A DNA stretch of 58,309 bases from Candidatus Omnitrophota bacterium (GCA_013203355.1 JABMQH010000075.1:1-58309); one strand, 5' to 3'. Numbered from the stretch's first letter, positions 45,901 to 58,309 are shown. Notes: generated from the sequence alone by a model not told the origin. Program-made: numbers and translations.

Positions 45901-48153
45901 GACTACAAGTTCTCCTCTGGCATTTCTAATATCTGTTATGATAACCGGGCCTGCTAATCTCGCGAAAACCCTATCTACTACCTCAGCGGCTCTTAATTCT
46001 ACCTCTTGCCTGCCTTTTATCCTCTGGCCCTTTTTTATCCTGACGGGTTCTCCATCTTTTGAAGCCTTTATAACGACAACTCCCCCATTAAAAAATTCAA
46101 CGCCGTCTTCTATTGTAACCGGGCCGTTCCCTTCTATTATAACTGTGGTATCGTCCCCGATTTTTACATTCCTGCCTATGTTTATTTCAAATCCATTCCC
46201 AAGATAACTGCCGCCAAGATACAGTCCCGCATTCCTGCCAAACCTAAGGGTAGGATCTATTTTTGCCCTGGCAAGCGGGCTGATTTCTACAACAGTGCCT
46301 TCTCCTATATTTTCGCCTGGGATCCCAAATTCCTGCTGCAGCCTTGCCATATGCTTAGATGCGTAATGGTCTCTGCTTTCAACAAATTTTCTCGCGTCCT
46401 TCGTAGGTAACGCATCCCCTTCATCCACCAATGCCACAGAAGTTGAGCCTAAAATTTCCGGCAGCCTTTGGATAGGCAGTTCGAGATTATCGGTTTGAAC
46501 TTTTGTGCCGTCTTTTTTATTTCTGCTCTTTTTCGACTGGACGAAGGGCTTCAGTTTCCTTGTCTCTATAACGGCCTTGAGGTTTTCCATGCTTAAATTA
46601 TAAGCGCCGGTGTTGGCTGGAATAACAAGCTCCGGGTTGGTAGCCTGCGCTTGACTTGAGGCCAATAAGCCATTAATCTCCTCCTGAAGATGTTGAATTG
46701 CCCCTGCCTTCAGTTCTTCAGATTCTGCATTTATTGCTTCAAGCCCTCCCATTGTTTCCACCATTTCGCTAAGCCTGTCTTGCAAAACGCCTTTACCTAC
46801 GCCCCATCTTGTACGATACACAAGGTCCTGAAGTCCATTATTCCTTTCAAAATACTCCACTATGGCTGCTGAGTCGGGATCCGTTGAAAAGAACGTACCG
46901 AGGGTAAATTCATCTTCAACATAAATCCCGGTAATATTGCCAGCATCATCTTTTTTGGTTTTTACGGATACTGTCCGGGGATAATCATAACCAATGGCGG
47001 ATAGTTCGCTGCCTGTAGCTTCTCTTGTCCCAACCAAACCTGATATTATTTCTGGCTCTAACGCCATATCCGTCTGTAAAAAGTTTGCATCTTCGACTTC
47101 GGGGTAATTCGCATCCAGCCATTCTAACGGTGTTTCCTCTGCTACCAGCGCCTCTTGGCCATTTTGCACAAGGAGCATGCCTTTATTACCTAATGCCATA
47201 ACAGTACCACCGCCGCCATCAGGCGCTTCTATGAACGTCCCATCAGGTTCCGACTCTATCGGACCCCAGCTCATGACAGCGCCGTCAGCATCATAGGTTT
47301 TATACACAGGGACAGCACTTTGGTCTTTTATAATAACCGTCTTCAGGCCAAAATAATTGTTTTTTCTAAGCGCTTCCAATATGGGCCTTCGTGTATCCGG
47401 GCCGACTATAACAACCACTGGGGAATCATCAGTATCTTGGGCGATTCTCCTCAATGATTCAAGAATAACCGTTATGGGGCTTTTGTGCATTATCTTCGAA
47501 TAAGGCACTGTCGGCTTTGAAATGCTTTTGAGCTCTGCTTTTTTTAAATCACCCGCGCCGATTTGCTGCCGCTGGCCTTCTGACATAGTATATAATTCCT
47601 GAAGTCGCGTACCGGCGCCTCCTGCCATAAGGACATTTATTACTTTCGGCATTCTTCTCATACCAATTGAAGAAGCATCCGAGGCACGTCTTATATTTTC
47701 GGTAGGGAATAAATTATGCGTAACTACTTCATAACCTTCCGGCCCGATAGAAACAGCCATGGGGATGTCGGAATAGTCTTGGAAGTTTATATTCGGAGGG
47801 GAGCGTGCGGAGTCATTTGCAATTATGTACTCTTTGACCGCCTTCATGTCCTTTAAAATAAACATCAATCTTTCAGCAACTAAACCAAATAATTTTTTAC
47901 TGGCTATGGTGGGGCTTTCGGCAATTTGAGCTTTTACATTATCCAGCTGCCTGGAATAGTCCCCTGCAAAAGAATTAAGCTGAGCGAGATCTTCTTTGGC
48001 CTTGGCAATTTTTGCATCTAACGTGCTTCGCTCAAGTAAAGGTAACTGCCTCAGGCAGGATTCGGGGGCAGGCCAGGTTATGGTGGGGGTTATAAATAGG
48101 ATTGATATAACTAACGCAATAATTTTGGAGGCAAGAACATTCGGCCTCATCAT
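42967..48153 (-). CDS. 1728-aa signal-anchored fusion of a UAP1/UDPGP-type UDP-sugar pyrophosphorylase (with beta-helix) and an alpha-D-phosphohexomutase
   Basis: N-terminus is MMRPNVLASKIIALVISILFITPTITWPAPESCLRQL. The pyrophosphorylase part has LMAGGAGTRL (M176), SKPTVPY and EAPDGGGGTVMAL. A hexapeptide-like region lies at about aa 611-725. The mutase part has VSGIRQ, YISASHNDEGYNGIK (S1096), HNDTDGDRR, GGEGSNG and FRDSITE. The start lies 1 nt after the stop of the upstream gene. Confidence 0.7.
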   Translation of the reverse strand: MMRPNVLASKIIALVISILFITPTITWPAPESCLRQLPLLERSTLDAKIAKAKEDLAQLNSFAGDYSRQLDNVKAQIAESPTIASKKLFGLVAERLMFILKDMKAVKEYIIANDSARSPPNINFQDYSDIPMAVSIGPEGYEVVTHNLFPTENIRRASDASSIGMRRMPKVINVLMAGGAGTRLQELYTMSEGQRQQIGAGDLKKAELKSISKPTVPYSKIMHKSPITVILESLRRIAQDTDDSPVVVIVGPDTRRPILEALRKNNYFGLKTVIIKDQSAVPVYKTYDADGAVMSWGPIESEPDGTFIEAPDGGGGTVMALGNKGMLLVQNGQEALVAEETPLEWLDANYPEVEDANFLQTDMALEPEIISGLVGTREATGSELSAIGYDYPRTVSVKTKKDDAGNITGIYVEDEFTLGTFFSTDPDSAAIVEYFERNNGLQDLVYRTRWGVGKGVLQDRLSEMVETMGGLEAINAESEELKAGAIQHLQEEINGLLASSQAQATNPELVIPANTGAYNLSMENLKAVIETRKLKPFVQSKKSRNKKDGTKVQTDNLELPIQRLPEILGSTSVALVDEGDALPTKDARKFVESRDHYASKHMARLQQEFGIPGENIGEGTVVEISPLARAKIDPTLRFGRNAGLYLGGSYLGNGFEINIGRNVKIGDDTTVIIEGNGPVTIEDGVEFFNGGVVVIKASKDGEPVRIKKGQRIKGRQEVELRAAEVVDRVFARLAGPVIITDIRNARGELVVPGALTIIDQALEAEGFVRPEGQEHFLSIGHTRYLLSEALKKDKFLVKENRYFTIRDEGKEKRVRRIVHHNRLYQEIIHEGKAELSDEEIDYLFNNLSENTLGRYILIYLRATNGNDNPALWARIVARAGELSLSGEALRTWEDVQNTMINERSRLEIGNPDRAPFGDIDMIDYDKLQDDIWQRTTAGVFSVSGIRQIFDPFFGDRPLPLRFPWRLGIGTEPTMAAKVHAATQAELFAQMLQDPSGFAERIPRLADQTVEQHKQNKSDFVSLLEKTQASKTKRKRKKITVLLDTRSTGPALADVDIRTLIAEGVDVEYAFVASVDEAAVYVKDNPDIDGCIYISASHNDEGYNGIKLLLGDGRVMPEPVAYPYIFVLCGSHPSVRKGRVKGVLENASHTRDVIAKVSSIDPKDVRAVYERIPQVKQQSQQADWNYRDRIIAGVSTNQQAQAPIAEIRDMISRLKLAVISDPNGGAREDMGYLDALGIKTYRLNPRPRYDMDHELCPSTAAVAETTEALESIRDIAVRQGYTVIGSLHNDTDGDRRNYRPIDLKGEFSLRDDMVQICFALDVISYALSEYDFEKNQPKRILGVSCNGPTGVLLEELAEVLGFVVIRTQTGEAYVADGMERLSNMTWAELKEAAESGEEEIIIPDSVRQQFDASHDGEKIKVIVGGEGSNGSDFTPDLLVRDPIHTIKSLINFLSPATGKQFMRALLRRLGREDEFDESWWDTGEGMATIMHRVISYLPASKTTDFFTVGGEGEMINPPLIVGLIKDTVDDVFESDFRESALSGLAGIWGVSKEDISYEYVNYEERAKPGRGNRREKPPMRRQIGDGGYKIKFYIHRGGKKIPIGWIWFRDSITEIGLTRLGASAVFPSSITGVQPDQQQEIVDKTYGFLKTTLGNVLQRTVAKTSEQILTADLGNLSPALRPYQKVLPAAQKDLRDYMQQKGISSPATPVSSAEMEQAHDAKTAAAAAI

Positions 48154-48154
48154 T

Positions 48155-51100
48155 TTATATACCGGAACTAACGGCTCTTCTTGTCTTTAATCCGTCCTGC
48201 GCAGCTTGAGTTGCCAGCGCACCAGCAACTACCGCTCCGGCTTCTCTGTCGAGTGCGGCGGCTCCTTTTTGTTTTCCTTCTCTTTCAATGACTGCAGGTT
48301 TCTCGAGCCGTGGGTTTGCCGGTACATAATAAAATCTTATCTCGTCGTTAGTGGTCTTCTGGGTCTTTTTGCTATTTTCGTAGGTGTCTTTCTCGCTTAC
48401 CTCTATTATTCTTTCAAATTCTACGGCGCCGGAAATTACTTCGCTGCCTGTAAGTTTTGCATGTCTCTTGCTTCTTGAAACCGAGCGTATGCCAACGCCG
48501 ATAGGAACCATTACGCGTTCTGTCGTTCCCCCAATCTCTACATCTTTAACAACATATAAATAATGCGCAACTAAATATTTTCTATGCTTCGCCCGTTCTA
48601 CCGGGTCGGGGTATTCTTTTGTTATGCGCGCCTCATTCTCAGGGTCAACACCCAATCCCTTCTGCTGCTCATCAACAATGGTCCTGCCCTCTTCATACGC
48701 CACCATAGCAAGGCCTGAGCTGTTTAAAGGAACGGCGCCGGGGTTGGTGACAATCTCATCATAGGTAACCTCTTTTTTGCCGTCTAATTTTCCGCGCCTT
48801 TGCACTAATCGTTCTGCTAAATGCCATTTATTAGTCCTTTTATCTCTTACAATGCGCCCGGTCGGCCGAATGGCACCTTTTACGTACTTTCCATTCTCGG
48901 CCCTTCTCGCTTGAGGTGATAGCATGATACGCATTTTTTTGCCTCCTACCTTTGCATCGCCAACAGCCGGCGGTTCGAGCTCCAGCGCCTTTTTAATAGT
49001 GGGGTGCCCTAAGGTAGTTGCCGTATCGGAGACTGTTTTTTTCTCTATAGCCTCTGTTAATTCTGCAACTCTGCGTTTCCAGAAATTCTCCAAAGCCGTA
49101 AGGTACTCTGCCATGGTCTTGCCTCCGGTTACAGGAAGGCGTTCGCTCCGTCCGGCTGCCCGCTGGACAGCCTTTTTGGCAAGCGGACTAATACGTTTTA
49201 GTATTGCTTTGGCAAATTCAAGTTCCCTTGTGGCCTGATTTGTCTGTGCCTTTTCATATTCGCCAGAGGCACTCTTAGTTTCTTCTGCAGTCTTGCTCCC
49301 GGCTACCTTCGCCCTACTATTGATGACCTGGCCGGCGGCCTTTTGAACACCTATATATTGTTCAATTGTTACAGGGGAAAAAATACTGGAGTCCTTCCTT
49401 CTTGAGCGGCTCTTTCTTGCTTTCACTTTCGTCATATCAGCTATCTCGGCAGCAATCCGCTTTTTCTCCAACTCTAATAACCTTGCTTCATTGGCCTCCA
49501 GGGCAGTCAGCAGTTGCTTTACATAACCCGGGCTCGGTTGGCTCTCGAGCCCATCCTGAAAGACAGTAAGGCTTTCAATGTCAAAATATGAGGATATATC
49601 ACGTTTATGCGAACCCACAAACCATTGAGTTACCGCACTACTATATCTCTTTGCTGACCCTCTCAGATAATCTTGCACCTGGCGTTGCCTCTCCCGAAAA
49701 TAGCGTAAGCCTCCTTCTATTTTATCTGCCCGGGTTTGAGTAAATTCTACTTCATATCCTGCCTGTATCCGTCTTCTTTGCAGTGTGGTCATACCAGTCA
49801 GGCGCGTTTGAAGCGGCATTGCGTCAAGCCCTGACTTAAGCGCTCTACCGTCCATACCAATAACGCGTAGCGGGTCAACCATGTTTGGCATGTTCCTCGA
49901 AAGCATGGTATGGTCATGCAATATATCCTCTGATCTACGCTGTGCATCAAGAAGGCTGACCCAGGCATCCTGGACTCTTCTCAATGCCTCTTTGCGCTCA
50001 TCTTCTGCTGCCATTATTTGCCTCTCTAGTGTGTTAGCATCACTCCTCGCGCTACGATTGCTCATCATGACCTGGAAGATCGCAAGGCGCTCTCCGTATT
50101 CCTGGTCCATGAGGAGTCCCTCATTCCGCTCGGATATGGACGGAGAAAGGGCTGATCCGAGGGCTACGCGAATCCTCATTGTCTGTCCACCCACCTCGTG
50201 TCGCTCTAACTCAATGGTGGCAAGCTGTAGCTCGCGCTCTCTCTTTTCTTTCCATTCCGGCAGTTCCCCTCGTATATATCTTCCGCGGTATTTACTCAGG
50301 TAATCTACGCGATGCCTGGCTAAACTAACCCTGGCATCTTGTTCGGCAATAACAGCTTTATTAAGCGCTTGTTGGGCATCAAAGGTATTTTCTTTTGTTG
50401 GGGATGTATCTTCCGCAGATATCTTCCGAAATCGCTGAAGTATGTTTATGGAATGTTGTTGTGTCCGTAGTAATTTGATGTTGGCTTTATAAACCCCGAC
50501 CTCTTTTTCTAGGTTTTGCACCGTTCTTGTGCGCCTACTCCGCCTAAACGCAATTTCCCGTTCGGCCGTCTTCTTCTGGGATTCTAAATGTGCGATCTCG
50601 GCATTCAGGAGTTTCTTCTTCTGTTCTAACTGCTGGTCGATCAAAGGTGCGCAATGCTCACTAAGAACCTTTTTTTGTTGTCCTTTTGACAACGCGGGGC
50701 GCCCTGGTATTAATAAGCATGGCTCATGCGCTGCTGAGAGATTTCGTCCTGCCCCAGGCAGAAATAAAATTCCCTGATCCAATAATTTGTCATTTAGTTC
50801 TCTTTCCTGTTGCGCCATAGCATGGTTGTATGCCGCTATTTGCTCAGCATATTTTAAAGAAGCCTGCGGTTCTACCACCTTGCCATATAGTGGATGTTTT
50901 GGCCCAAACTTAGATTTGAAGGGGTGAGCTTTAATAAAAGAATGGTCTTTAGACGTAAGCTCCTGGACGCTCTTAAGATAATCGCGCGTTGTCTTAGCAA
51001 GGGCTTGCCATACACTGCTCTGTTTTGCTTTATCATTGACGGCGCCAGCTTTGTAATACTGCGATAAAAGCTGATTCATCTTTTCTTTAAAAGCGGTATC

Positions 51101-51478
51101 CATCCGGCGTCTCAGAGAAGCGGATTTAGCGCGGCCTTCGATCATGATCCTCATATAAGAGTTAATGAGGCCTTGGCTTCCAAGAATCTCAAGCTCATCC
51201 TTCGCTTGGACTTTATTGTCTGCGCCTAAGGCGTCTAAAGTAGTACCTGGTGCAACGACACCTGCGGAAGTCAGTATCCCCATCGTTCTCAAAAAACCTC
51301 GACGACTCCTTCCTGCGGCGCTTAAGGCATCTAAATCATCTGCTTCACTCTGCCCGCCTTCAATTATGGCAAGCGGCCTTAGGGAAGATTGCGGCGCAGA
51401 CCAGGCGATATTAGAATACACCAGGAGTATTGAAAGTAGGATCGACCAAATTTTAAACATCTTGTTTCTGGTGTTCAT
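48155..51478 (-). CDS. 1107-aa coiled-coil-rich protein with an N-terminal hydrophobic helix and an internal twin-arginine-like motif; paralog of the core of the >2051-aa protein
   Basis: N-terminus is MNTRNKMFKIWSILLSILLVYSNIAWSAPQSSLRPL, followed by GRSRRGFLRTMGILTSAGVVAP (R59-R60). Long Glu/Arg/Lys/Gln-rich helical stretches follow. The C-terminal ~280 aa are about 65-70 percent identical by eye to the paralog. Confidence 0.7.
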   Translation of the reverse strand: MNTRNKMFKIWSILLSILLVYSNIAWSAPQSSLRPLAIIEGGQSEADDLDALSAAGRSRRGFLRTMGILTSAGVVAPGTTLDALGADNKVQAKDELEILGSQGLINSYMRIMIEGRAKSASLRRRMDTAFKEKMNQLLSQYYKAGAVNDKAKQSSVWQALAKTTRDYLKSVQELTSKDHSFIKAHPFKSKFGPKHPLYGKVVEPQASLKYAEQIAAYNHAMAQQERELNDKLLDQGILFLPGAGRNLSAAHEPCLLIPGRPALSKGQQKKVLSEHCAPLIDQQLEQKKKLLNAEIAHLESQKKTAEREIAFRRSRRTRTVQNLEKEVGVYKANIKLLRTQQHSINILQRFRKISAEDTSPTKENTFDAQQALNKAVIAEQDARVSLARHRVDYLSKYRGRYIRGELPEWKEKRERELQLATIELERHEVGGQTMRIRVALGSALSPSISERNEGLLMDQEYGERLAIFQVMMSNRSARSDANTLERQIMAAEDERKEALRRVQDAWVSLLDAQRRSEDILHDHTMLSRNMPNMVDPLRVIGMDGRALKSGLDAMPLQTRLTGMTTLQRRRIQAGYEVEFTQTRADKIEGGLRYFRERQRQVQDYLRGSAKRYSSAVTQWFVGSHKRDISSYFDIESLTVFQDGLESQPSPGYVKQLLTALEANEARLLELEKKRIAAEIADMTKVKARKSRSRRKDSSIFSPVTIEQYIGVQKAAGQVINSRAKVAGSKTAEETKSASGEYEKAQTNQATRELEFAKAILKRISPLAKKAVQRAAGRSERLPVTGGKTMAEYLTALENFWKRRVAELTEAIEKKTVSDTATTLGHPTIKKALELEPPAVGDAKVGGKKMRIMLSPQARRAENGKYVKGAIRPTGRIVRDKRTNKWHLAERLVQRRGKLDGKKEVTYDEIVTNPGAVPLNSSGLAMVAYEEGRTIVDEQQKGLGVDPENEARITKEYPDPVERAKHRKYLVAHYLYVVKDVEIGGTTERVMVPIGVGIRSVSRSKRHAKLTGSEVISGAVEFERIIEVSEKDTYENSKKTQKTTNDEIRFYYVPANPRLEKPAVIEREGKQKGAAALDREAGAVVAGALATQAAQDGLKTRRAVSSGI

Positions 51479-51536
51479 ATGTCACCTTTTTTAACTTGAT
51501 CCTTCCCTTGAATGCCAGGGACAGGTTCAAACTTGG

Positions 51537-51570
51537 GTTTGGGGACACTTGCGTATTCAAATCCCCAAAC
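51537..51570 (-). other. stem-loop in the spacer between the HD-GYP gene and the 1107-aa gene
   Basis: GTTTGGGGA (51537-51545) pairs with TCCCCAAAC (51562-51570): a 9 bp stem and a 16-nt loop, with no T-tract. Confidence 0.35.
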
Positions 51571-51586
51571 GGTACCAATATTACTA

Positions 51587-52165
51587 TTATATCACTTTTA
51601 AGAGCTCCACGATAAACACTTCAACGATCCTTGGATCAAACTGTTTGGCAGAATATTTACGCAATATTCTTATCGCCTCCTGAATTATCATAGCCTTTCT
51701 GTAAGGCCTCACTGAAACCATCGCCTCATAGGAATCGCAAACCGCTATGATCCGTGCACTGATGGGGATCCTGGATCCCTTCTTTCGTGCATTAGTCGGA
51801 TATCCGTTTCCGTTAAACCAGACGTGGTGATAATAGATTGCCTCGACAACCTCTTTGCTAAATCCTGCCTCTTTCACCAAACGGGCAGAAATTATCGGAT
51901 GCATCTTTATCTTAAGCCATTCAACGCTCGACAATCTTTGCTCTTTCCCCCAGATCCGCATATCTATTCCTATCTTTCCAACATCATGGATTAGGCTGGC
52001 GGCTATAATCATATCTTTTTTCTTGCCTCTGATCTTCAACACCTTACATAATGCCATGGCGTAATTTGCCACATTCTCGGAGTGGCAGGGCGTACAATTA
52101 TTCGTCCTGTCAAGTTTCCTCGCTAATGTCCTGAGGTCCTGTGGGGTGTATATTAGCTTGCCCAT
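51587..52165 (-). CDS. stand-alone HD-GYP domain protein (putative cyclic-dinucleotide phosphodiesterase)
   Basis: 192 aa with LIHDVGKIGI (HD) and YYHHVWFNGNGYP (a variant of the HHExxDGxGYP motif). There is no receiver or sensor domain. The start overlaps the end of the upstream giant ORF by 13 nt. Confidence 0.7.
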   Translation of the reverse strand: MGKLIYTPQDLRTLARKLDRTNNCTPCHSENVANYAMALCKVLKIRGKKKDMIIAASLIHDVGKIGIDMRIWGKEQRLSSVEWLKIKMHPIISARLVKEAGFSKEVVEAIYYHHVWFNGNGYPTNARKKGSRIPISARIIAVCDSYEAMVSVRPYRKAMIIQEAIRILRKYSAKQFDPRIVEVFIVELLKVI

Positions 52166-55100
52166 TTTTTAAACACTCTCCTAAAAGGTTTCTTAAAATA
52201 CTTCAGGAAATCCTCTCTGATCCTCGCAAAATGGATAGGGCTGGTTTTGAATTCTTCCTTATCCATAAATCGGTCTGTATCCCCGAATGCCGTCCTTGTC
52301 TGCGTGGATTTTTTACGCACCGGATATTTCCCTGCAGGCGTATCCTTGGTTCTTGAGAACATATATTCCAAATTAAGTGAAGTGATCAAAGGGATCAATC
52401 TTCGGTCTCTTGCGATTTTAATCAAGGTGTTCCTATCTAACCGTACAGATTCTAACCTGGTTAGATCTGTCAGGATAGGATAGTCCGCAAATAGGCTTTG
52501 TAAGTCTAGCTCCGTCATAAACGGCTCAAGCAAGCCGTCTATATCTTCTATCTTGTCCACGTCGAGTATCACGCCGTATGGCACTCCAAGGTCGCTTAAT
52601 TTCTTTTCCATCATATCCCGCTCAACAGATACAACTAATATATCTCTCCTGCCCATACCCCCTAACTTCTCCTGTACGGCTTGAATCATTCCTGCAGTTG
52701 CCTTTTCCTGAGGGATACCTATTACAAGAGAGGTCTTGCGGGTTTTTGGTATAACCTGTGTAATCTTAAATGACGAGGATAGTTCCATCCTTCCGGCAAG
52801 TTCTACAATAGGAAGTTCTCTTATGACGTCGGTTGCACTTATCGGTGGTTTTAATTCTCCAACTAATGGCTTTGCTTGTGGTGTTTGCTGCTGGATTTCA
52901 GCCTTTGCACCAGCCCAAAATTCTCCATCACTTGCTATCTGCTCTCTAGTTCTGCCAGAAGACCTATAGAAACTTGGATATAGCCCTTCAAGTCCTCCTC
53001 TTTCTAACAGGTCATAAATACTAATAAGCAGAATATGGGGATCGGCAGACACGCCTGATTCGAATCTCGTGACGTGTCTTGCTATTGCTTCATCTGCGGA
53101 CACTCCAGATTGCCTAATACTGTTCTCAGCCCTCCCTCTTAACAACCCGATATTTTGTTTCAATATTGTATCAGCATTTATGAATTCTTCATTAAATATG
53201 GCTATTATCTCCCTGCGAACTTCGGGGTTCTCCCATCCATCAATATAATTTCTTAAATACGTAAGCTCTCCCACATCTATAAATTGATCTTGAAGTACAT
53301 CTGGTACATCTGGTGGAATCTCTGCTATAACCTGTTGTGGATAATCTTCAAAATCATCAACATCGCAAAGACTATGGGCATGATCTATAATAGTTACGTC
53401 TCCTGTATCTCTATTTACGAGCATGTCGGGTGGATGAACTCTGGTAAATACAACTTCTCTTCCCCGCGCAAGTCTAGCCATATTTCTTATAAAATTCCTA
53501 GCTACTTCATTTTGGTTGGCATAACTTATTTTTTGATCTTCTGGTAGCTCGTTAGCACTAAGTCGCTCACCCGCAATCCTTGGTGCCATAGCACCCCTAA
53601 CACCTCCTAAAGTAAATATGTTATAAGTATTATATATCCCGCATGCCATAAGTAATTCGCTAGTAGCTCGACGTTGTTCAGGCCAGCTGCCATAAAATAC
53701 AGTCTCTATACTCCTCCCATCTCTTGTATTAAATGTTACAAAGTACGTAGAGCGGTCATTGCCTCCTGCAAATATCACTTCTCCTATAGGATTATTTGGA
53801 TCCAAATTAGCTGCTTCCTCTCCAAGATAGGTCAGTACAAGTCTTGTTAATTCATTTGAATCCAGCCTATATACATCTTTATATGTATGAGGATATTTCG
53901 TAAAATCAGGTTCTTGCGTAAAGGATTCGAATATATGTCGGTTTTGTTCTAGTGCATCTCTTAAAGCCCTACCTCTCGTCTCTTCTTCTGTCATTTTCTC
54001 TGCTGTTCTGGAAAAATCTGCAATCCAGCCTTCAACTACCTTACCAATACAAACCACTAGCCCAAATTGACCTTTCTCAGCGAGTACCCTCGCTTCCATT
54101 AAAGCGCTAACCACAAAATTCGCAACAAAACCAGGCGAGGTCTTATCGATAAACACATTGAATTCAGGATGTGCGCTAATACTTCTGGACAACGTAGGTA
54201 TTACACTCGCCACGTCGCCTGCGGTAGGCAAATCATCACGTCTTGCCATAGCAATATAATTTCTAATTTCATCAGAAATTCTATCCGAAGACAAAAATGC
54301 CACCATTTCCGCTTCCCTTTCATCAAATGTCTTGACTTCTATACATGAATTAATAATACCTTGTGAGGAAAATTCTGCATCACGTCTTCCGATAACACGT
54401 AATCTGCCTAAATAAGCTTCGTATGCACCAGGATCAATTGCCCCTGCTTGGAAAGTGGCATTTATATCCCTAATCAGTGCTGTTGCCGTCGCTATCATAT
54501 GGAAATTTACATGATGGCTGCGCTTACTTGACCCAAAGAACTCGACATTACTATCGAGCTTGTCTATCCTAGCATCTATTGTCTCACCCATACCAGCAGC
54601 CGACATAGCGGCAGCTGCAACCACTGTTTCACCTTTTCTGTCAGCTGCAGCTTGACCCTTTGGCTTTTTTTCGGTTTCAATAACTGCGGGTTTCCCAAGA
54701 CGCTCGATCGACGGAACCAAGTAAAATCTTACCTCTTCTGTGGTGGTCTCTTGCGTCTTTGTGCTGGCCTCATAGGTGTCTTCTTCTGTTACGTCTATTA
54801 CATTTTCAAATTCTACACGGCCGGCTATTACATCTGCTGCTGTAAGCTTTGTATTCCTTTCAGTTCTTGAAAGCGAGCGTATACCGACACCGACAGGAAC
54901 CAGCATGCGTTGTGTCCTTCCTGAAACCTTTACATCTTTACCAACATAAAGGTGATGCGCAACTAAATATTTTCTATGCTTTGCCCGTTCTTCTGGATCA
55001 GGATATTGGTCTGCTATGCGTGCTTCATTCTCTGGGTCAACGCCTAACTCCCTCGGTTGCTCGTTAACAACGGTTCTGCCTTCTTCGTATGCTACCGTGA

Positions 55101-58100
55101 CAATATCGGCTCCGTTGTAAGCAACAGCGCCCTCACTTCCAACAACCTCATCATAGTTAACTTCTTCCTCACCGTCTAATTTCCCTTTTCTCTGCACCAA
55201 ACGTTCTCTTAAATGCCAAGTCTTGGTCTGTGGATCCTGTACGACATCTCCGCTCGGCCGGACAGCGCCTTTTACGTACCTTCCATTAGCAGCCCTTCTT
55301 AATTGAGATGGCAACATAATAGGCATAGTCTTGTCTTTTCCATCTTTTACCTTTACCTTTGCGTCACCAACAGCCGGCTTTCCGAGTTCCAGCGCCCTTT
55401 CAATGGCGGGCTGGCCTTTACCGGAAGATACAGAGGAAGGTAGACCTTTTTCTACTCCCTGTTCTGCTTGTTTTGTTCTACGCGCCCAGAAACCTTGCAA
55501 GGCCTTGCAATACTCTGCGCGTGTGCGGGTGCCGGTTACAAGATATCTGCCAGCAATAGGTGTCTCTGCGCCACGTGCAAGCGTACTCAAGTGGTCTGAC
55601 ATTGCTTTTGCAAATTGAAGCTCCAGCGCAGCCTGATTTGCCTGCGCTTGCTTGTATTTATCATTTGCTGCCTCAGCTTCTTGGTCCGTCGTGGCCCTTA
55701 TTGCTTCCAGGCGATAATCAATGAGCCGGCGCGCGCCATTCATCAGCACTATATATTGCTTAAGTAATGGCACTAGTGCGGCAGGTTTATACATAAGATC
55801 CTTCTCTGTTTGGTTCATTTCAGTAGTAATCCGTTCGCTCTCTAATTCCAAGAGTTCTTCTTCGTGATCTGCTAAAGCGTCAAGGCGGGCAGGTACCTCA
55901 CCTGGACTCATATATTCGATACGGCCTGATTGAAGCGGTATTAAATTCTCAACGTCAAAATAAGGAGTCTCTATAATCCTATGTGAATTAACAACCCATC
56001 TGGCTATCATGCCGTTATATGTCCCTCTTGTTTGCGGAATAGCCGCTTGTGCCCTGGCTGCTTGTTTCTTAAAGTATTCAATACCTTCCGCTGCTTCTCG
56101 AGCCTGGCGTTTAGTCCGGCTAACATGCATCCATGCCTGAAGCTCAGCTCGATTCATCCGTGCCTGCTGCATTAGATGCCCTATTCTGGCGCGGTCAGCC
56201 TGATGTGCTAATTTGTAGTTTGAACCCCCCATTAAACTTCGATAGCCAGTAGCCTGACTCTTGCCATAAGCCTGCATAACTTGTGCCTGGCCAATTTCAA
56301 GTTGGGCAAGCCCATATTGCAATCTGGATATATCGCGTTGAAACTCAATATAGTCAAGGCCTCCCCACGCTTTATTTACCGCCGCCAAAGACCTTTGGTA
56401 TTCCCCTCTGGCTTCGTCTACCCTTGCTGCTTGTTGTCCGGCAGCCTGGACCGCCCTGTAGATATTGCTGCGGGCATGGAAGATTAAAAGACGAGCGCCA
56501 TATTCATGATCTATATCCAGCTCTTCATTTCGTTCGGGCAAAGATGGGGCAAGGGTCCCTCCAAGTTCTGAGATTTCCACCATTATTTTCTCAATTAGTT
56601 CACTGTGCCTGCGCGCAAACCTGATACGCTGGAACTCATCTAATCTCCCTTCTTTATCCTTAGCCGGTTCAACACGCGCCGGGCCGTGATATGTGCGCAG
56701 TTCCTCTTCTTCTTTTTTTATGATGATAATATTTAAGCGCTGTTCGGCAATAACTGCCTTATTAATATCTTGTTGGGCATCGAGGCGTTCTTTGTCTGTA
56801 GTCGCATTATTAAGCTTTCTTAGCCCTTTCAAGGCATCCCTTTGCGCCTCTAATAATGCAATGCGTGTTTCATAATCAGCGATCCTTTGCCGTATTGGAG
56901 TTATCATTGAATGTGTCTGATTAGCGAATCTGCCGATCACCTCCTCCTCTGATTTTTTCTTGCTTTCAAAATGTGCGATTTCAGAATCTAAAACCGATAT
57001 CTTATAATCTAATAATGCATTCCGCGCGGGGACAAAAGTCTCGCGTATCAGTTTTTCCCTTTCCTGCTTAGTAAGTGTTGGCCGCCCTGGCTGCGATATA
57101 AACGCCTCCTGTGCAGAGTGGATGTTACGGCCTCCTTCGGGGAGAAATAAAAGTCCCTGGCTGAGTAATTTCTCGTTCAGTTCTCTTTCGTGCTTAGCGC
57201 GGTCATAAGCATGCCTTGTTTCTCTTTCAAAACCTATCAATAATGATGAAGTATCGCCAAAGCGTCCGCTAGTTCTTATGAAAAGATCTCTGACCCTTGG
57301 CAGATGTGCCTTCATAAAAGCGCTATTCTTAGATTCAAATTCTTCTACTCTTTTAAGATAGCTACGGGTAGTGCCTGCAATATCCTGCCATAATACGTGT
57401 GCTGTTTTCTCATCACCCGAATTACGTGCTTCATAATATTGCGGTAAAAGCAAATTCATCCTTCGCTGGAACCAGCCATCCAGTTCCCGTTTATAGGAAA
57501 TAGCGCGAGACTGTCGAGCTAATAACATTCCCATGGGATCATTGACAAGACCTAGCTGTCCAAGTCGCTCAAGCTCATCTTTAGCGCTTGGTGGCGCTTC
57601 TGCGCCTAAAGCTCTAACGGTCACGCTAGGTGCTATAGCAACCCCAGCGGCTGCGGCAACAGCTTCCCTTATAAAGTCACGCCGACTTATTCTGAAATCA
57701 GCCGGCATAGCCGGTGGCTGTACGCCAATTTTACCCTGCGCATACTTTAAGAACTCTGCCTCATATTCCAGTATTGCCCTTGCGTCGCCTCTTAGTTGTG
57801 CAGGTACTGTCCTGTCTTCTCTTGAAAAAGACTCAAGTATCCTTAGGGCTTGTGGAGTTCCTTCCTGTGCGAGTTGGTCTAAGTACCATTTATGGAATGC
57901 GCTTATATGTTCTCCTTCATTTATAAAGTTCCTTGAGCCCTGGGCAGCGTATCTGTGTCTTAGTTGGGGTGGTATATTTCTTTCTGGTTCTGCTGCTTCT
58001 ATGTTTTCCTTATATTCATGATCTATTAGTTCATCAAGCATGTTCTCATTGGAAGTTAGTTCATCGAAGTATCCTTCGGTTACATATATATGTACTTCTC

Positions 58101-58309
58101 CATCTACTACCCCTGCGTGTGCGTTTACCATCTCTGTTATACTTGTTGCGCCGTCTTTCCTTGGTATGCCCATACCAGAGGTTTCATCTGTCTTCTTCAA
58201 TACGTGGATCTTTACTGTGGTTTCTCCTACCTGTTGGGTGTGCTGTACGGTTGAAGGGGTGCGGGCTATTACTTCATTTATATGTTCCTGTTCAGCTGTT
58301 GATGCGCCG
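52153..58309 (-). CDS. giant protein (>2051 aa), 5' end outside the window: 1107-aa-like core plus a ~790-aa C-terminal extension with a possible kinase-like fold
   Basis: The track begins at a TTG (58200), but the same frame stays open through 58201-58308 (GASTAEQEHINEVIARTPSTVQHTQQVGETTVKIHV). It contains an internal ISRRDFIREAVAAAAGVAIAP motif and is collinear with the 1107-aa protein. Confidence 0.7.
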   Translation of the reverse strand, partial: GASTAEQEHINEVIARTPSTVQHTQQVGETTVKIHVLKKTDETSGMGIPRKDGATSITEMVNAHAGVVDGEVHIYVTEGYFDELTSNENMLDELIDHEYKENIEAAEPERNIPPQLRHRYAAQGSRNFINEGEHISAFHKWYLDQLAQEGTPQALRILESFSREDRTVPAQLRGDARAILEYEAEFLKYAQGKIGVQPPAMPADFRISRRDFIREAVAAAAGVAIAPSVTVRALGAEAPPSAKDELERLGQLGLVNDPMGMLLARQSRAISYKRELDGWFQRRMNLLLPQYYEARNSGDEKTAHVLWQDIAGTTRSYLKRVEEFESKNSAFMKAHLPRVRDLFIRTSGRFGDTSSLLIGFERETRHAYDRAKHERELNEKLLSQGLLFLPEGGRNIHSAQEAFISQPGRPTLTKQEREKLIRETFVPARNALLDYKISVLDSEIAHFESKKKSEEEVIGRFANQTHSMITPIRQRIADYETRIALLEAQRDALKGLRKLNNATTDKERLDAQQDINKAVIAEQRLNIIIIKKEEEELRTYHGPARVEPAKDKEGRLDEFQRIRFARRHSELIEKIMVEISELGGTLAPSLPERNEELDIDHEYGARLLIFHARSNIYRAVQAAGQQAARVDEARGEYQRSLAAVNKAWGGLDYIEFQRDISRLQYGLAQLEIGQAQVMQAYGKSQATGYRSLMGGSNYKLAHQADRARIGHLMQQARMNRAELQAWMHVSRTKRQAREAAEGIEYFKKQAARAQAAIPQTRGTYNGMIARWVVNSHRIIETPYFDVENLIPLQSGRIEYMSPGEVPARLDALADHEEELLELESERITTEMNQTEKDLMYKPAALVPLLKQYIVLMNGARRLIDYRLEAIRATTDQEAEAANDKYKQAQANQAALELQFAKAMSDHLSTLARGAETPIAGRYLVTGTRTRAEYCKALQGFWARRTKQAEQGVEKGLPSSVSSGKGQPAIERALELGKPAVGDAKVKVKDGKDKTMPIMLPSQLRRAANGRYVKGAVRPSGDVVQDPQTKTWHLRERLVQRKGKLDGEEEVNYDEVVGSEGAVAYNGADIVTVAYEEGRTVVNEQPRELGVDPENEARIADQYPDPEERAKHRKYLVAHHLYVGKDVKVSGRTQRMLVPVGVGIRSLSRTERNTKLTAADVIAGRVEFENVIDVTEEDTYEASTKTQETTTEEVRFYLVPSIERLGKPAVIETEKKPKGQAAADRKGETVVAAAAMSAAGMGETIDARIDKLDSNVEFFGSSKRSHHVNFHMIATATALIRDINATFQAGAIDPGAYEAYLGRLRVIGRRDAEFSSQGIINSCIEVKTFDEREAEMVAFLSSDRISDEIRNYIAMARRDDLPTAGDVASVIPTLSRSISAHPEFNVFIDKTSPGFVANFVVSALMEARVLAEKGQFGLVVCIGKVVEGWIADFSRTAEKMTEEETRGRALRDALEQNRHIFESFTQEPDFTKYPHTYKDVYRLDSNELTRLVLTYLGEEAANLDPNNPIGEVIFAGGNDRSTYFVTFNTRDGRSIETVFYGSWPEQRRATSELLMACGIYNTYNIFTLGGVRGAMAPRIAGERLSANELPEDQKISYANQNEVARNFIRNMARLARGREVVFTRVHPPDMLVNRDTGDVTIIDHAHSLCDVDDFEDYPQQVIAEIPPDVPDVLQDQFIDVGELTYLRNYIDGWENPEVRREIIAIFNEEFINADTILKQNIGLLRGRAENSIRQSGVSADEAIARHVTRFESGVSADPHILLISIYDLLERGGLEGLYPSFYRSSGRTREQIASDGEFWAGAKAEIQQQTPQAKPLVGELKPPISATDVIRELPIVELAGRMELSSSFKITQVIPKTRKTSLVIGIPQEKATAGMIQAVQEKLGGMGRRDILVVSVERDMMEKKLSDLGVPYGVILDVDKIEDIDGLLEPFMTELDLQSLFADYPILTDLTRLESVRLDRNTLIKIARDRRLIPLITSLNLEYMFSRTKDTPAGKYPVRKKSTQTRTAFGDTDRFMDKEEFKTSPIHFARIREDFLKYFKKPFRRVFKKWAS
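52451..52474. repeat. second copy of the 23-mer seen at 281-303, including the 15-bp palindrome TCTAACC-T-GGTTAGA
   Basis: CTAACCTGGTTAGATCTG-t-CAGG matches 281-303 (CTAACCTGGTTAGATCTG-g-CAGG): 18 nt exact and 22 of 23 overall, in the same orientation. Here it lies inside coding sequence. Confidence 0.6.

What the first reader, a model, noticed from the sequence alone, without database searches (positions are those of the whole stretch)
48155..58309. Two paralogous coiled-coil giants with a highly conserved ~280-aa C-terminal module of unknown function
The 1107-aa protein is collinear with the core of the >2051-aa protein. Shared blocks include:
- DELEILGSQGLINSYMRIM vs DELERLGQLGLVNDPMGML.
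- LNDKLLDQGILFLPGAGRN vs LNEKLLSQGLLFLPEGGRN.
- AEIAHLESQKK vs SEIAHFESKKK.
- A nearly identical module reading ..PAVGDAKV..RRA(E/A)NG(K/R)YVKGA(I/V)RP(T/S)G..WHL(A/R)ERLVQR(R/K)GKLDG..VAYEEGRT(I/V)V(D/N)EQ..GVDPENEARI..YPDP(V/E)ERAKHRKYLVAH(Y/H)LYV..VP(I/V)GVGIRS(V/L)SR..VEFE..DTYE..KTQ(K/E)TT..(I/V)RFY..KPAVIE.

The similarity is visible at DNA level, with roughly 80 percent identity by eye between ~48206-49030 and ~54600-55425.

I recognise no known family. The long Arg/Glu/Gln-rich heptad-like stretches suggest extended scaffolds. Together with the enzyme giants in the same transcription unit, they could form a large envelope-associated assembly.
Basis: seen in the sequence. Interest (0 to 1): 0.62.

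Follow-up and report, generated by a model that had tools for sequence, protein, structure and literature searches.

The report
Orphan paralogs with gene-converted tail domain
Two large neighbouring genes of an uncultured Omnitrophota bacterium are real paralogs of a very rare, unannotated protein family, but their near-identical last 250 residues reflect an old copy-paste (gene conversion) between the two genes rather than special conservation, and what the proteins do remains unknown.

Summary
The 1107-aa protein (A) and the >2051-aa protein (B) align over 1054 residues at 40% identity. Their C-terminal ~250 residues are 64% identical in protein and 71% in DNA, not about 80%.

The family is an orphan. 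Pfam, NCBIfam, PHROGs, PADLOC, PDB sequences and Foldseek all gave nothing. A profile search of 1.84 billion representative proteins and about 440 Omnitrophota genomes found members in only three lineages.

The module is not specially conserved. Between orthologs its dN/dS (0.35-0.36) is no lower than in the helical part (0.25-0.36). Between the paralogs its dS is 0.7-0.9 against about 2.7 elsewhere, and indels group A with B there but A with the third lineage elsewhere. An ~0.8-kb gene conversion explains this, probably A-type into B.

A crude heptad scan did not support a canonical coiled coil; the middle ~740 residues are long helices.

New here: the shared unit starts at a conserved twin-arginine signal-like segment (SRRxFL[KR], A/G-rich helix, LGA). 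It is internal in every member, and both protein ends carry variable, swapped cassettes. TatA and TatC are present, but similar segments inside giant ORFs of this class do not track TatC.

My best guess, at low confidence, is a membrane-anchored envelope scaffold.

The parts
52153..58308 (-). Gene B (P0002), >2051 aa. The 5' end is cut by the contig end.
   Evidence: ORF list and translation. The window is the whole of contig C51. No overlapping contig end was found in the assembly.
57691..58308 (-). B N-terminal extension (residues 1-206), incomplete, with no hydrophobic segment and no family hit.
   Evidence: Similarity to the third lineage's N-extension is not significant.
57601..57690 (-). 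B internal twin-arginine signal-like segment (ISRRDFIREAVAAAAGVAIAPSVTVRALGA). It marks the start of the unit shared with A.
   Evidence: TIGR01409 TAT_signal_seq scores 22.0 bits against a cut-off of 16.7, the best hit in the genome. R, R and F are invariant in the family alignment.
55414..57600 (-). B all-alpha region (about residues 237-965).
   Evidence: Collinear with A 87-825 at 18-43% aa identity per 60-residue window.
54611..55417 (-). B beta-rich C-module, which is also the gene-conversion tract.
   Evidence: blastn gives 71.4% identity to 48219-49010. dS is 0.89 here against 2.72 in the helical part. Four-fold-site identity is 59% against 34%.
52834..54603 (-). B variable cassette (residues 1236-1825, 590 aa), unannotated. 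In the close relative a SAM-methyltransferase domain takes its place.
   Evidence: Methyltransf_25, 35.3 bits, in L003; no homologs. My 'kinase-like' impression rests only on the motif HPPDMLVNRD..IIDHAH and is untested.
52156..52833 (-). B C-terminal tail (residues 1826-2051), shared with the relative's B ortholog.
   Evidence: Alignment. No family hit.
51587..52165 (-). HD_5 (HD-GYP-type) domain protein, 192 aa. It overlaps the end of B by 13 nt and sits at the same place in the relative.
   Evidence: Pfam HD_5, E = 6.9e-31. Synteny in L003-L005.
48155..51478 (-). Gene A (P0001), 1107 aa, complete.
   Evidence: The ortholog P0003 is 81% identical.
51344..51478 (-). A N-terminal hydrophobic leader with the motif NIAWSAPQSSLRPLAIIE (residues 1-45).
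   Evidence: Kyte-Doolittle segment at residues 6-29. The same leader type occurs on the 1728-aa and 462-aa proteins of the window and on ORFs of C141, C52 and C165. A leader profile hits 43 of 301 class genomes.
51221..51310 (-). A twin-arginine signal-like segment (RSRRGFLRTMGILTSAGVVAPGTTLDALGA, residues 57-86).
   Evidence: TIGR01409 scores 15.1 bits, below the 16.7 cut-off. TIGR02811 gives a weak hit. The motif is invariant across the family.
49004..51220 (-). A all-alpha region (residues 87-825).
   Evidence: The AF2 secondary structure shows 13 helices of 24-74 residues, with pLDDT 70-85 in patches and 49.7 overall.
48219..49010 (-). A beta-rich C-module, which is also the gene-conversion tract (module residues 826-1072; the blastn tract covers about residues 824-1086).
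   Evidence: (best model pLDDT 74, pTM 0.72; the other four about 42).

Best explanation
A and B are paralogs of a lineage-restricted orphan family of modular envelope proteins.

**Anatomy.** The unit they share is about 1,020 aa:
- a conserved twin-arginine signal-like segment (S-R-R-x-F-L-K/R, an Ala/Gly-rich h-region, then L-G-A or V-G-G);
- about 740 aa of long helices;
- a beta-rich domain of about 250 aa.

Variable pieces are bolted onto both ends:
- In A, a hydrophobic leader plus a 30-aa linker.
- In B, at least 207 aa upstream, and in the third lineage 400 to at least 785 aa upstream.
- Downstream of the core, nothing in A, a 590-aa unknown cassette in B, a methyltransferase in B's ortholog, and another ~350 aa in the third lineage.

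**Shown: the C-module similarity is a gene-conversion footprint.** An ~0.8-kb tract was converted between the paralogs, probably with the A-type sequence overwriting B. This happened after the split from the third lineage and before the split from the ENA relative. The module is under ordinary, fairly relaxed purifying selection, like the rest of the protein.

**Inferred: localisation.** The RR/h segment acts as an N-in/C-out signal-anchor. In this TatA/TatC-positive genome it may be Tat-dependent. That would place the alpha+beta core on the outer face of the inner membrane, tethered there or released at the LGA site. The homogenised beta domains of A and B would then engage the same partner or each other, next to the exported-looking sugar-nucleotide giants and CBM proteins of the operon.

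My confidence differs by claim: paralogy and conversion about 0.85, extracytoplasmic anchoring about 0.4, strict Tat dependence about 0.35.
For: **Paralogy.** (40% identity over 1054 aa).

**Rarity.**
- A module profile against 1.84e9 representative proteins found only P0005, plus a fragment of A itself.
- Word-indexed searches found only P0003, P0004 and P0005.
- 0 of 400 other phylum genomes and 0 of 40 relatives carry the module.

**Gene conversion.**
- A/B nucleotide identity is 70-78% in the module against 38-56% elsewhere.
- Identity at four-fold sites is 59-72% against 33-40%, with about 26% expected by chance. Fisher p = 9e-4 for the window pair.
- By NG86, A/B dS is 0.89 in the module against 2.72, with the same dN/dS of 0.26.
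- Between orthologs, dS in the module (0.30, 0.49) is not lower than in the helical part (0.23, 0.42). This excludes a mutational cold spot or synonymous constraint.
- In the helical part A is closer to the third lineage than to B (dN 0.49 against 0.70). In the module A is closer to B (0.23 against 0.44).
- Indels agree. A 6-aa, a 13-aa and several smaller indels group A with the third lineage in the helical part. A 16-aa insertion and several small indels group A with B in the module.
- Direction: A-to-third-lineage dS is the same in module and helical part (1.71 against 1.62), as expected if A kept its own module.

**RR segment.**
- R59, R60 and F62 are invariant.
- TIGR01409 scores over its cut-off in B (22.0), B's ortholog (19.8) and P0004 (22.5).
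- TatC scores 222 bits and two TatA copies score 74 and 72 bits.
- A, B and one radical-SAM ORF are the only TAT_signal candidates in the genome.

**Modularity.** The cassette swap between B and its ortholog and the N-extensions in L006 and L013.
Against: **Against Tat targeting.**
- The RR segment is never N-terminal. It lies 58 aa in for A, at least 208 in for B, and 345 to at least 800 in for the third lineage.
- In A it follows a Sec-like hydrophobic leader. By the positive-inside rule that leader would leave the RR motif on the wrong side of the membrane.
- A's own segment scores below the TIGR01409 cut-off.
- Similar segments inside ORFs of 2,000 aa or more in this class show no association with TatC: 18 of 29 such genomes are TatC-positive against 51% background, p = 0.32. 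Eleven lack TatC, including a single-contig genome.
- G133, which carries the same bipartite leader on an unrelated protein, has no TatC.

**Against an extracytoplasmic location.**
- A SAM-dependent methyltransferase fused downstream in B's ortholog would have no SAM outside the cytoplasm.

**Limits of the evidence.**
- Both structure models rest on five sequences. The full-length model has pLDDT 49.7, and only one of five module models reached 74.
- dS values above about 1.5 are poorly estimated.
Confidence: 0.5

Rival explanations
1. Cytoplasmic-face scaffold. The leader and the RR/h segment form a helical hairpin, or the RR/h segment is a plain Sec/YidC-inserted helix. The alpha+beta core and its C-terminal enzyme cassettes then stay in the cytoplasm, tethered to the membrane. 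There they could organise the operon's sugar-nucleotide enzymes, which need cytoplasmic substrates.
For: - A SAM methyltransferase is fused to B's ortholog.
- The neighbouring giants carry GlmS, PGM and UDP-sugar pyrophosphorylase-type domains that need cytoplasmic substrates.
- RR-like segments in giant ORFs occur in TatC-less genomes.
- 'SP+TM' topologies are common among long Omnitrophota proteins (bioRxiv 10.64898/2026.06.07.730766).
Against: - Positive charges sit on the N-side of the h-region and acidic residues on its C-side, which favours N-in/C-out.
- The third lineage's L013 and B have no detectable second hydrophobic helix in the sequence available.
- A small-residue cleavage-type site (LGA or VGG) is conserved after the h-region.
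Confidence: 0.27
2. Polymorphic secreted effector. The conserved core is a trafficking or translocation part, and the variable C-terminal cassettes (unknown 590 aa, methyltransferase) are payloads delivered to a host or prey cell, where SAM and ATP are available.
For: - The cassette is swapped between orthologs that are otherwise 70-90% identical in protein across the core.
- Omnitrophota are proposed to be host-dependent or predatory (PMC10066038; bioRxiv 10.1101/2023.11.21.568195).
Against: - There is no known toxin or trafficking domain.
- The variable cassette is followed by a conserved tail rather than ending the protein.
- A has no cassette at all.
- No immunity-like gene was recognised; the next gene is an HD-GYP-type protein.
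Confidence: 0.1
3. The C-terminal ~280 aa are a functionally critical domain kept nearly identical in both paralogs by unusually strong purifying selection.
For: Protein identity is 64% in the module against about 33% elsewhere.
Against: - Ortholog dN/dS in the module (0.36, 0.35) is equal to or higher than in the helical part (0.36, 0.25).
- Paralog dS is three times lower in the module.
- A against the third lineage is no better conserved in the module.
Confidence: 0.05
4. Phage or mobile-element structural protein, for example one resembling a tape measure, or an S-layer protein.
For: A long helical region is followed by a beta domain, and the distribution is very patchy.
Against: - No PHROGs hit.
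- No BFVD or PDB fold match.
- No phage genes in the window.
- No SLH domain.
Confidence: 0.03

Closest known systems
Twin-arginine (Tat) signal peptides (TIGR01409 TAT_signal_seq), and dual Sec/Tat-inserted membrane proteins such as the Streptomyces coelicolor Rieske protein Sco2149. The Rieske example is from my own knowledge (Keller et al. 2012) and was not checked here.
   Same: The family has the S-R-R-x-F-L-K motif, a weakly hydrophobic Ala/Gly-rich h-region and a small-residue site after it. Three family members score over the profile cut-off. TatA and TatC are present. The Rieske case shows that an internal RR helix preceded by Sec-type helices can work.
   Different: The segment is never N-terminal. 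In A a single hydrophobic segment precedes it, whereas the Rieske case has an even number, so the RR motif would face the wrong side. No cofactor-binding domain follows it. Look-alike segments in giant ORFs of this class occur in genomes without TatC.
Long or giant modular membrane-associated proteins of Omnitrophota, including the 'Archaeovorin'-type and 'SP+TM' classes (bioRxiv 10.1101/2023.11.21.568195; bioRxiv 10.64898/2026.06.07.730766; PMC10066038).
   Same: Same phylum. These proteins also have a signal-peptide-like N-terminus plus internal hydrophobic segments, mostly unannotated sequence, cytoplasm-type enzyme domains in 'extracellular' positions, and modular shuffling between relatives.
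   Different: A and B are much shorter (1.1 and >2 kaa). They have no SecA_DEAD, C39 or dockerin domains. Their core was found in no other genome searched.
Polymorphic toxin or effector proteins (Rhs, CDI, LXG type).
   Same: A conserved N-terminal or central part carries a C-terminal domain that is swapped between close relatives.
   Different: There is no recognisable trafficking, toxin or immunity module. The swapped cassette is internal and followed by a conserved tail. Paralog A lacks a cassette.
Concerted evolution of paralogs by gene conversion, as in bacterial tuf genes or surface-protein gene families (general knowledge).
   Same: A sharply bounded tract of low synonymous divergence lies between otherwise saturated paralogs that sit in direct orientation about 6.4 kb apart.
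   Different: The tract is old (dS about 0.7-0.9) rather than continuously homogenised, and it covers one domain only.

Membership tests
Tat substrates (TIGR01409 TAT_signal_seq) | Consensus S/T-R-R-x-F-L-K motif. | tested here: met
   The six sequences read SRRGFLR, SRRDFIR, DRRGFLR, GRRDFLK and SRRDFLK (twice). R, R and F are invariant.
Tat substrates (TIGR01409 TAT_signal_seq) | Profile score over the curated cut-off of 16.7 bits. | tested here: inconclusive
   B scores 22.0, B's ortholog 19.8 and P0004 22.5, all over the cut-off. A scores 15.1, below it.
Tat substrates (TIGR01409 TAT_signal_seq) | The signal lies at the N-terminus of the precursor. | tested here: not met
   The RR motif is at residue 59 in A, after a hydrophobic leader. 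It is at residue 209 or later in B, at 346 in P0004 (about 410 with the upstream leader ORF), and at least 800 residues in for L013. No convincing internal start with a ribosome-binding site was found.
Tat substrates (TIGR01409 TAT_signal_seq) | Tat translocase encoded in the genome. | tested here: met
   TatC scores 222 bits. TatA is present twice, at 73.9 and 72.1 bits.
Tat substrates (TIGR01409 TAT_signal_seq) | Export depends on TatC and on the RR pair. | not testable with these tools
   This needs reporter fusions. As indirect counter-evidence, RR-like segments in ORFs of 2,000 aa or more in the class do not co-occur with TatC.
Canonical coiled-coil rod proteins (SMC/myosin-like) | Long uninterrupted heptad periodicity. 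| tested here: inconclusive
   A home-made heptad scan found 0.9% of windows in A and 4.2% in B above the 99th percentile of shuffled sequence. AF2 shows 13 helices of 24-74 residues separated by loops. No calibrated coiled-coil predictor was available.
Phage tail, tape-measure or S-layer domains | A profile or fold match to a known structural family. | tested here: not met
   PHROGs gave nothing and Pfam nothing. The best Foldseek hits were E = 0.04 in PDB and E = 0.054 in BFVD, with TM-scores below 0.2.
Polymorphic toxins or effectors | A known trafficking domain, a C-terminal toxin domain and an adjacent immunity gene. | tested here: not met
   No such domains were found. The one feature met is the cassette swap between orthologs.
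Class-wide N-terminal leader of long Omnitrophota proteins (unnamed) | A hydrophobic segment followed by [WF]-[SAT]-x-P .. (S)LRxL. | tested here: met
   A carries it. So do the 1728-aa and 462-aa proteins of the window and ORFs on C141, C52 and C165. The profile hits 43 of 301 class genomes, mostly on ORFs of 1,000-9,900 aa. Its function is unknown.

The most novel reading that the evidence does not exclude
The SRRxFLK-plus-A/G-rich-helix segment that opens the A/B core may be one instance of a class-wide element that delimits modules inside long and giant Omnitrophota proteins.

In 301 genomes of the class, 42 of 113 TAT_signal_seq hits over the cut-off lie in open frames of 2,000-44,145 aa, with up to three per frame. 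These giant-embedded copies are kept even in genomes without TatC.

That would make them functional membrane-insertion or processing signals that work without the canonical Tat translocase, for example through the giants' own SecA-like parts or through cleavage into separately targeted pieces. In A and a few unrelated proteins the segment is combined with a Sec-like leader into a conserved bipartite N-terminus.
Probability: 0.3. Interest if true: 0.7.

Novelty: new variant of a known kind. Interest (0 to 1): 0.48.

Why it matters
**For this locus.** The result removes a false lead, since the module is not an unusually constrained domain. In its place is a dated evolutionary event and a clear anatomy: an RR-type anchor, a helical region, a beta domain and swappable ends. 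That anatomy tells an experimenter which boundaries to use for constructs.

**More broadly.** Omnitrophota giant proteins are almost entirely unannotated, and how they reach or cross the membrane is an open question. Tat-signal-like segments turn out to be common inside them, and those copies do not follow TatC. A Sec-like leader combined with an RR segment also recurs on unrelated proteins. Together these give a concrete, testable handle on that question.

Tried and rejected
**Searches that found nothing**
- Pfam, NCBIfam, PHROGs and PADLOC on whole proteins and on excised segments. Only TAT-signal models hit in the window proteins. The relative's cassette hit methyltransferase models.
- PDB sequence searches with the module profile and with B's C-extension.
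- Foldseek of the module model against PDB and BFVD, and of the full-length model against PDB. There were only chance-level OB-fold or helical hits, with TM-scores below 0.2.
- The search for related loci on metagenome contigs (twice) and on genome contigs.
- The search for homologous proteins with B's 590-aa cassette.

**Ideas tested and dropped**
- Internal translation start just before the RR motif. Met codons exist in B and the third lineage but lack convincing Shine-Dalgarno sequences. A has none. Not adopted.
GG or GA is not conserved across the family.
- Homology between B's N-extension and the third lineage's repeated N-extension domain. BLASTP gave E = 0.08, and an HMM of the three copies hit nothing in the genome.
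- A recent second conversion around the 16-aa insertion. The segment carries many synonymous differences, so it is as old as the rest of the tract. B's ortholog has simply lost part of it.
- Joining B's missing 5' end through overlapping contig ends. No overlap was found.

**Not possible**

Full report
**1. What is there**

The window is a whole contig (C51) of a 1.57-Mb, 206-contig genome that is 93% complete. Earlier notes of this scan call it an uncultured Omnitrophota. I did not verify that name. The class relatives do carry open frames of up to 44,145 aa, as described for this phylum (PMC10066038).

Three genes lie on the minus strand:
- B, 52153-58308, 2051 aa, with its 5' end cut by the contig end.
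- A 192-aa HD_5 protein, 51587-52165, which overlaps B's end by 13 nt.
- A, 48155-51478, 1107 aa. Its stop lies 1 nt before the start of the 1728-aa UDP-sugar-pyrophosphorylase/PGM fusion.

Intrinsic-terminator-like sites were no more frequent than in shuffled sequence, and none fell in the intergenic gaps on that strand.

**2. Observation check**

BLASTP aligns A 58-1084 with B 208-1230 at 40% identity, E = 0.

At the DNA level only the last part is alignable as a block. 48219-49010 pairs with 54611-55417 at 71.4% over 808 nt. That is lower than the 'about 80%' seen by eye.

**3. How rare it is**

No curated library recognises the core, and neither do PDB sequences.

A profile of the C-module was read against 1.84 billion representative proteins. 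It returned only P0005 (1413 aa) and a fragment identical to A's end. Word-indexed searches returned P0003, which is A's ortholog at 81%, plus P0004 and P0005. None of 400 other genomes of the phylum and none of 40 relatives carries the module. Three further collection scans were empty.

The family therefore has three known lineages:
- This genome, with A and B.
- A close ENA relative, with A_rel and B_rel on one contig in the same order as in the window.
- A 'C-type' lineage, represented by P0004 (JGI) and P0005 (ENA). The genes flanking it are 42-65% identical to a syntenic block on C186 of this genome, and that block lacks the gene.

**4. The 'highly conserved module' is a gene-conversion tract**

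*Identity.* In 60-codon windows, A/B nucleotide identity is 38-56% up to residue 837, 69-78% from 838 to 1077, and 40% beyond.

*Synonymous sites.* At four-fold degenerate sites of identical residues, A and B agree at 33-40% in the helical part, where chance is about 26%, but at 59-72% in the module. Fisher p = 9e-4 for the window pair.

*Nei-Gojobori estimates.*

| Comparison | Region | dN | dS | dN/dS |
|---|---|---|---|---|
| A vs B | helical | 0.70 | 2.72 | 0.26 |
| A vs B | module | 0.23 | 0.89 | 0.26 |
| A_win vs A_rel | helical | 0.082 | 0.23 | 0.36 |
| A_win vs A_rel | module | 0.106 | 0.30 | 0.36 |
| B_win vs B_rel | helical | 0.105 | 0.42 | 0.25 |
| B_win vs B_rel | module | 0.170 | 0.49 | 0.35 |
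| A vs C-type | helical | 0.49 | 1.62 | 0.30 |
| A vs C-type | module | 0.44 | 1.71 | 0.26 |

The ortholog comparisons show that the module is neither a mutational cold spot nor more constrained than the rest.

*Incongruence.* In the helical part A is nearer to the C-type than to B. In the module A is nearer to B.

*Indels.* A 6-aa indel, a 13-aa indel and several small ones unite A with the C-type in the helical part. A 16-aa insertion, predicted to form two short helices, and several small indels unite A with B in the module.

*Timing and direction.* A_win/B_rel is as similar as A_win/B_win, so the event predates the split from the ENA relative. A-to-C-type dS is the same in module and helical part. 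This suggests A kept its own module and B's was overwritten. That step is an inference, because dS above about 1.5 is imprecise.

**5. Anatomy of the shared unit**

The alignment of five sequences begins to be conserved exactly at a twin-arginine motif, with R59, R60 and F62 invariant. An Ala/Gly/Thr-rich hydrophobic stretch follows, ending in LGA (VGG in the C-type).

TIGR01409 scores over its cut-off in B (22.0 bits), B_rel (19.8) and P0004 (22.5), but not in A (15.1).

AlphaFold2 on the full-length A alignment gave a low mean pLDDT of 49.7. It predicts residues ~90-812 as 13 long helices, with patches at pLDDT 70-85. My crude heptad scan found no excess of heptad-regular windows over shuffled sequence. 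I therefore call the region all-alpha and not 'coiled-coil'.

The module alone gave one model at pLDDT 74 and pTM 0.72, while the other four were near 42. That model is beta-rich with a long hairpin and matches nothing in PDB or BFVD.

**6. Variable ends**

*Downstream of the core.*
- A ends 35 residues after the module.
- B continues with a 590-aa cassette that has no detectable relatives, then a 226-aa tail.
- B_rel has a SAM-methyltransferase domain in place of the cassette (Methyltransf_25, 35.3 bits), then the same tail.
- The C-type has another ~350 aa.

*Upstream of the RR motif.*
- A has a hydrophobic leader with the motif NIAWSAPQSSLRPLAIIE, then a 30-aa acidic linker.
- B has at least 207 aa.
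- P0004 has 345 aa. An upstream 90-aa ORF with a hydrophobic leader is separated from it only by a 68-nt tandem duplication, so without that duplication the leader is in frame.
- In L013 at least 785 aa precede the motif, across a scaffold gap, and they include two copies of one domain.

Both the window assembly and the ENA assembly break inside this upstream part of B.

**7. Is it a Tat substrate?**

*For.* The genome encodes TatC (222 bits) and two TatA copies. A, B and one radical-SAM ORF on C105 are the only TAT-signal candidates.

*Against.* The segment is never N-terminal. In A, the preceding leader and the RR helix both prefer an N-in orientation, which cannot hold for two consecutive helices.

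*Class-wide control.* In 301 genomes of the class, TIGR01409 gave 113 hits at E <= 0.005 per genome. Of these, 42 lie in frames of 2,000 aa or more and 25 in frames of 5,000 aa or more. Some frames carry two or three hits, for example G103 (12,652 aa, three hits) and G149 (39,687 aa, two hits).

TatC is present in 169 of the 301 genomes. Cross-tabulation gives:
- Genomes with hits only in frames under 1,000 aa: 34 of 42 TatC-positive, against 112 of 221 in genomes with no hit. Odds ratio 4.1, p = 3e-4.
- Genomes with hits in frames of 2,000 aa or more: 18 of 29 TatC-positive, p = 0.32. Eleven lack TatC, among them a single-contig genome.

Look-alike segments embedded in giants are therefore not generally Tat-dependent. 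I put strict Tat dependence for A and B at about 0.35. The weaker claim, that this is a conserved N-in-type signal-anchor opening the module, I put at about 0.4-0.5.

**8. The bipartite N-terminus recurs**

A's arrangement is a leader, an acidic linker and an RR segment. It also occurs on a 1668-aa ORF of G133, which continues into an unrelated domain that looks by eye like a glycoside hydrolase; G133 has no TatC. It occurs again on a 1139-aa ORF of G403. The leader part alone hits 43 of 301 genomes, mostly on ORFs of 1,000-9,900 aa.

The Omnitrophota papers in the library do not mention Tat or twin-arginine signals.

**9. Verdict**

This is a real, very rare, unannotated paralog pair. The striking C-terminal similarity is explained conventionally, by gene conversion. 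The function is not established.

My best guess is a membrane-anchored envelope scaffold with exchangeable accessory domains. A cytoplasmic-face scaffold is a serious rival, because of the fused methyltransferase and the TatC-independent look-alikes.

The more interesting lead lies outside the original claim: RR-type segments and a bipartite leader as recurrent targeting or delimiting elements of long Omnitrophota proteins.

Noticed in passing
G103:C1:396052-403239 (L014, L015); the class-wide table: TAT_signal_seq (TIGR01409) matches over the cut-off are frequent inside giant ORFs of this class. 42 of 113 hits lie in frames of 2,000-44,145 aa, with up to 3 per frame, and the three G103 copies inspected each follow a Ser/Pro-rich linker. 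Genomes with such hits are no more likely to have TatC than the background: 18 of 29 against 51%, and 11 lack it.
   Followed up: partly
window 51344-51478, 48020-48153 and 1560-1692; genome contigs C141, C52, C165; L016 (G133:C55); L020 (G403:C75): A shared N-terminal leader, a hydrophobic segment followed by [WF]-[SAT]-x-P..(S)LRxL, sits on at least six proteins of this genome and hits 43 of 301 class genomes, mostly on long ORFs. On A, G133:C55 and G403:C75 a short acidic linker and an RR segment follow it, giving a bipartite N-terminus. By the positive-inside rule both segments prefer N-in, so the topology is unexplained.
   Followed up: partly
L006:517-651: A 68-nt perfect tandem duplication frameshifts the JGI homolog (P0004) away from an upstream 90-aa ORF that carries a hydrophobic leader. 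It is either an assembly artefact or a real disruption.
   Followed up: partly
L003:4550-5200: In the ENA relative the tail of B's ortholog is interrupted by repeated 'KVTDTTVISGNAAVS'-coding units on both strands and by a run of N. This could be a repeat-element insertion or a scaffolding problem.
   Followed up: no
L013:2-2359: The ENA C-type member has at least 785 aa upstream of its RR motif, including two copies of a ~90-aa domain (..ILKTxG..IWAHASDRG..FELLRYMAV) with ~600 aa between them. No family matches the domain, and it is absent from the window genome.
   Followed up: partly
genome contig C105:2-517: The only conventional N-terminal Tat-signal candidate in the genome (MDRREFLKRSCLFTAGVTL..) is a radical-SAM-type ORF with a CxxxCxxC motif, cut by the contig end.
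   Followed up: no
window 52834-54603: B's 590-aa cassette contains HPPDMLVNRDTGDVTIIDHAH, which is reminiscent of a kinase/APH-type catalytic loop followed by a metal-binding Asp. No profile or homolog supports this.
   Followed up: partly
window 42967-48153 against L003:9361-15842: The 1728-aa UDPGP-PGM fusion of the window is represented in the relative by two separate genes of 767 and 1356 aa. The cluster therefore reshuffles modules between close relatives, as B's cassette does.
   Followed up: no
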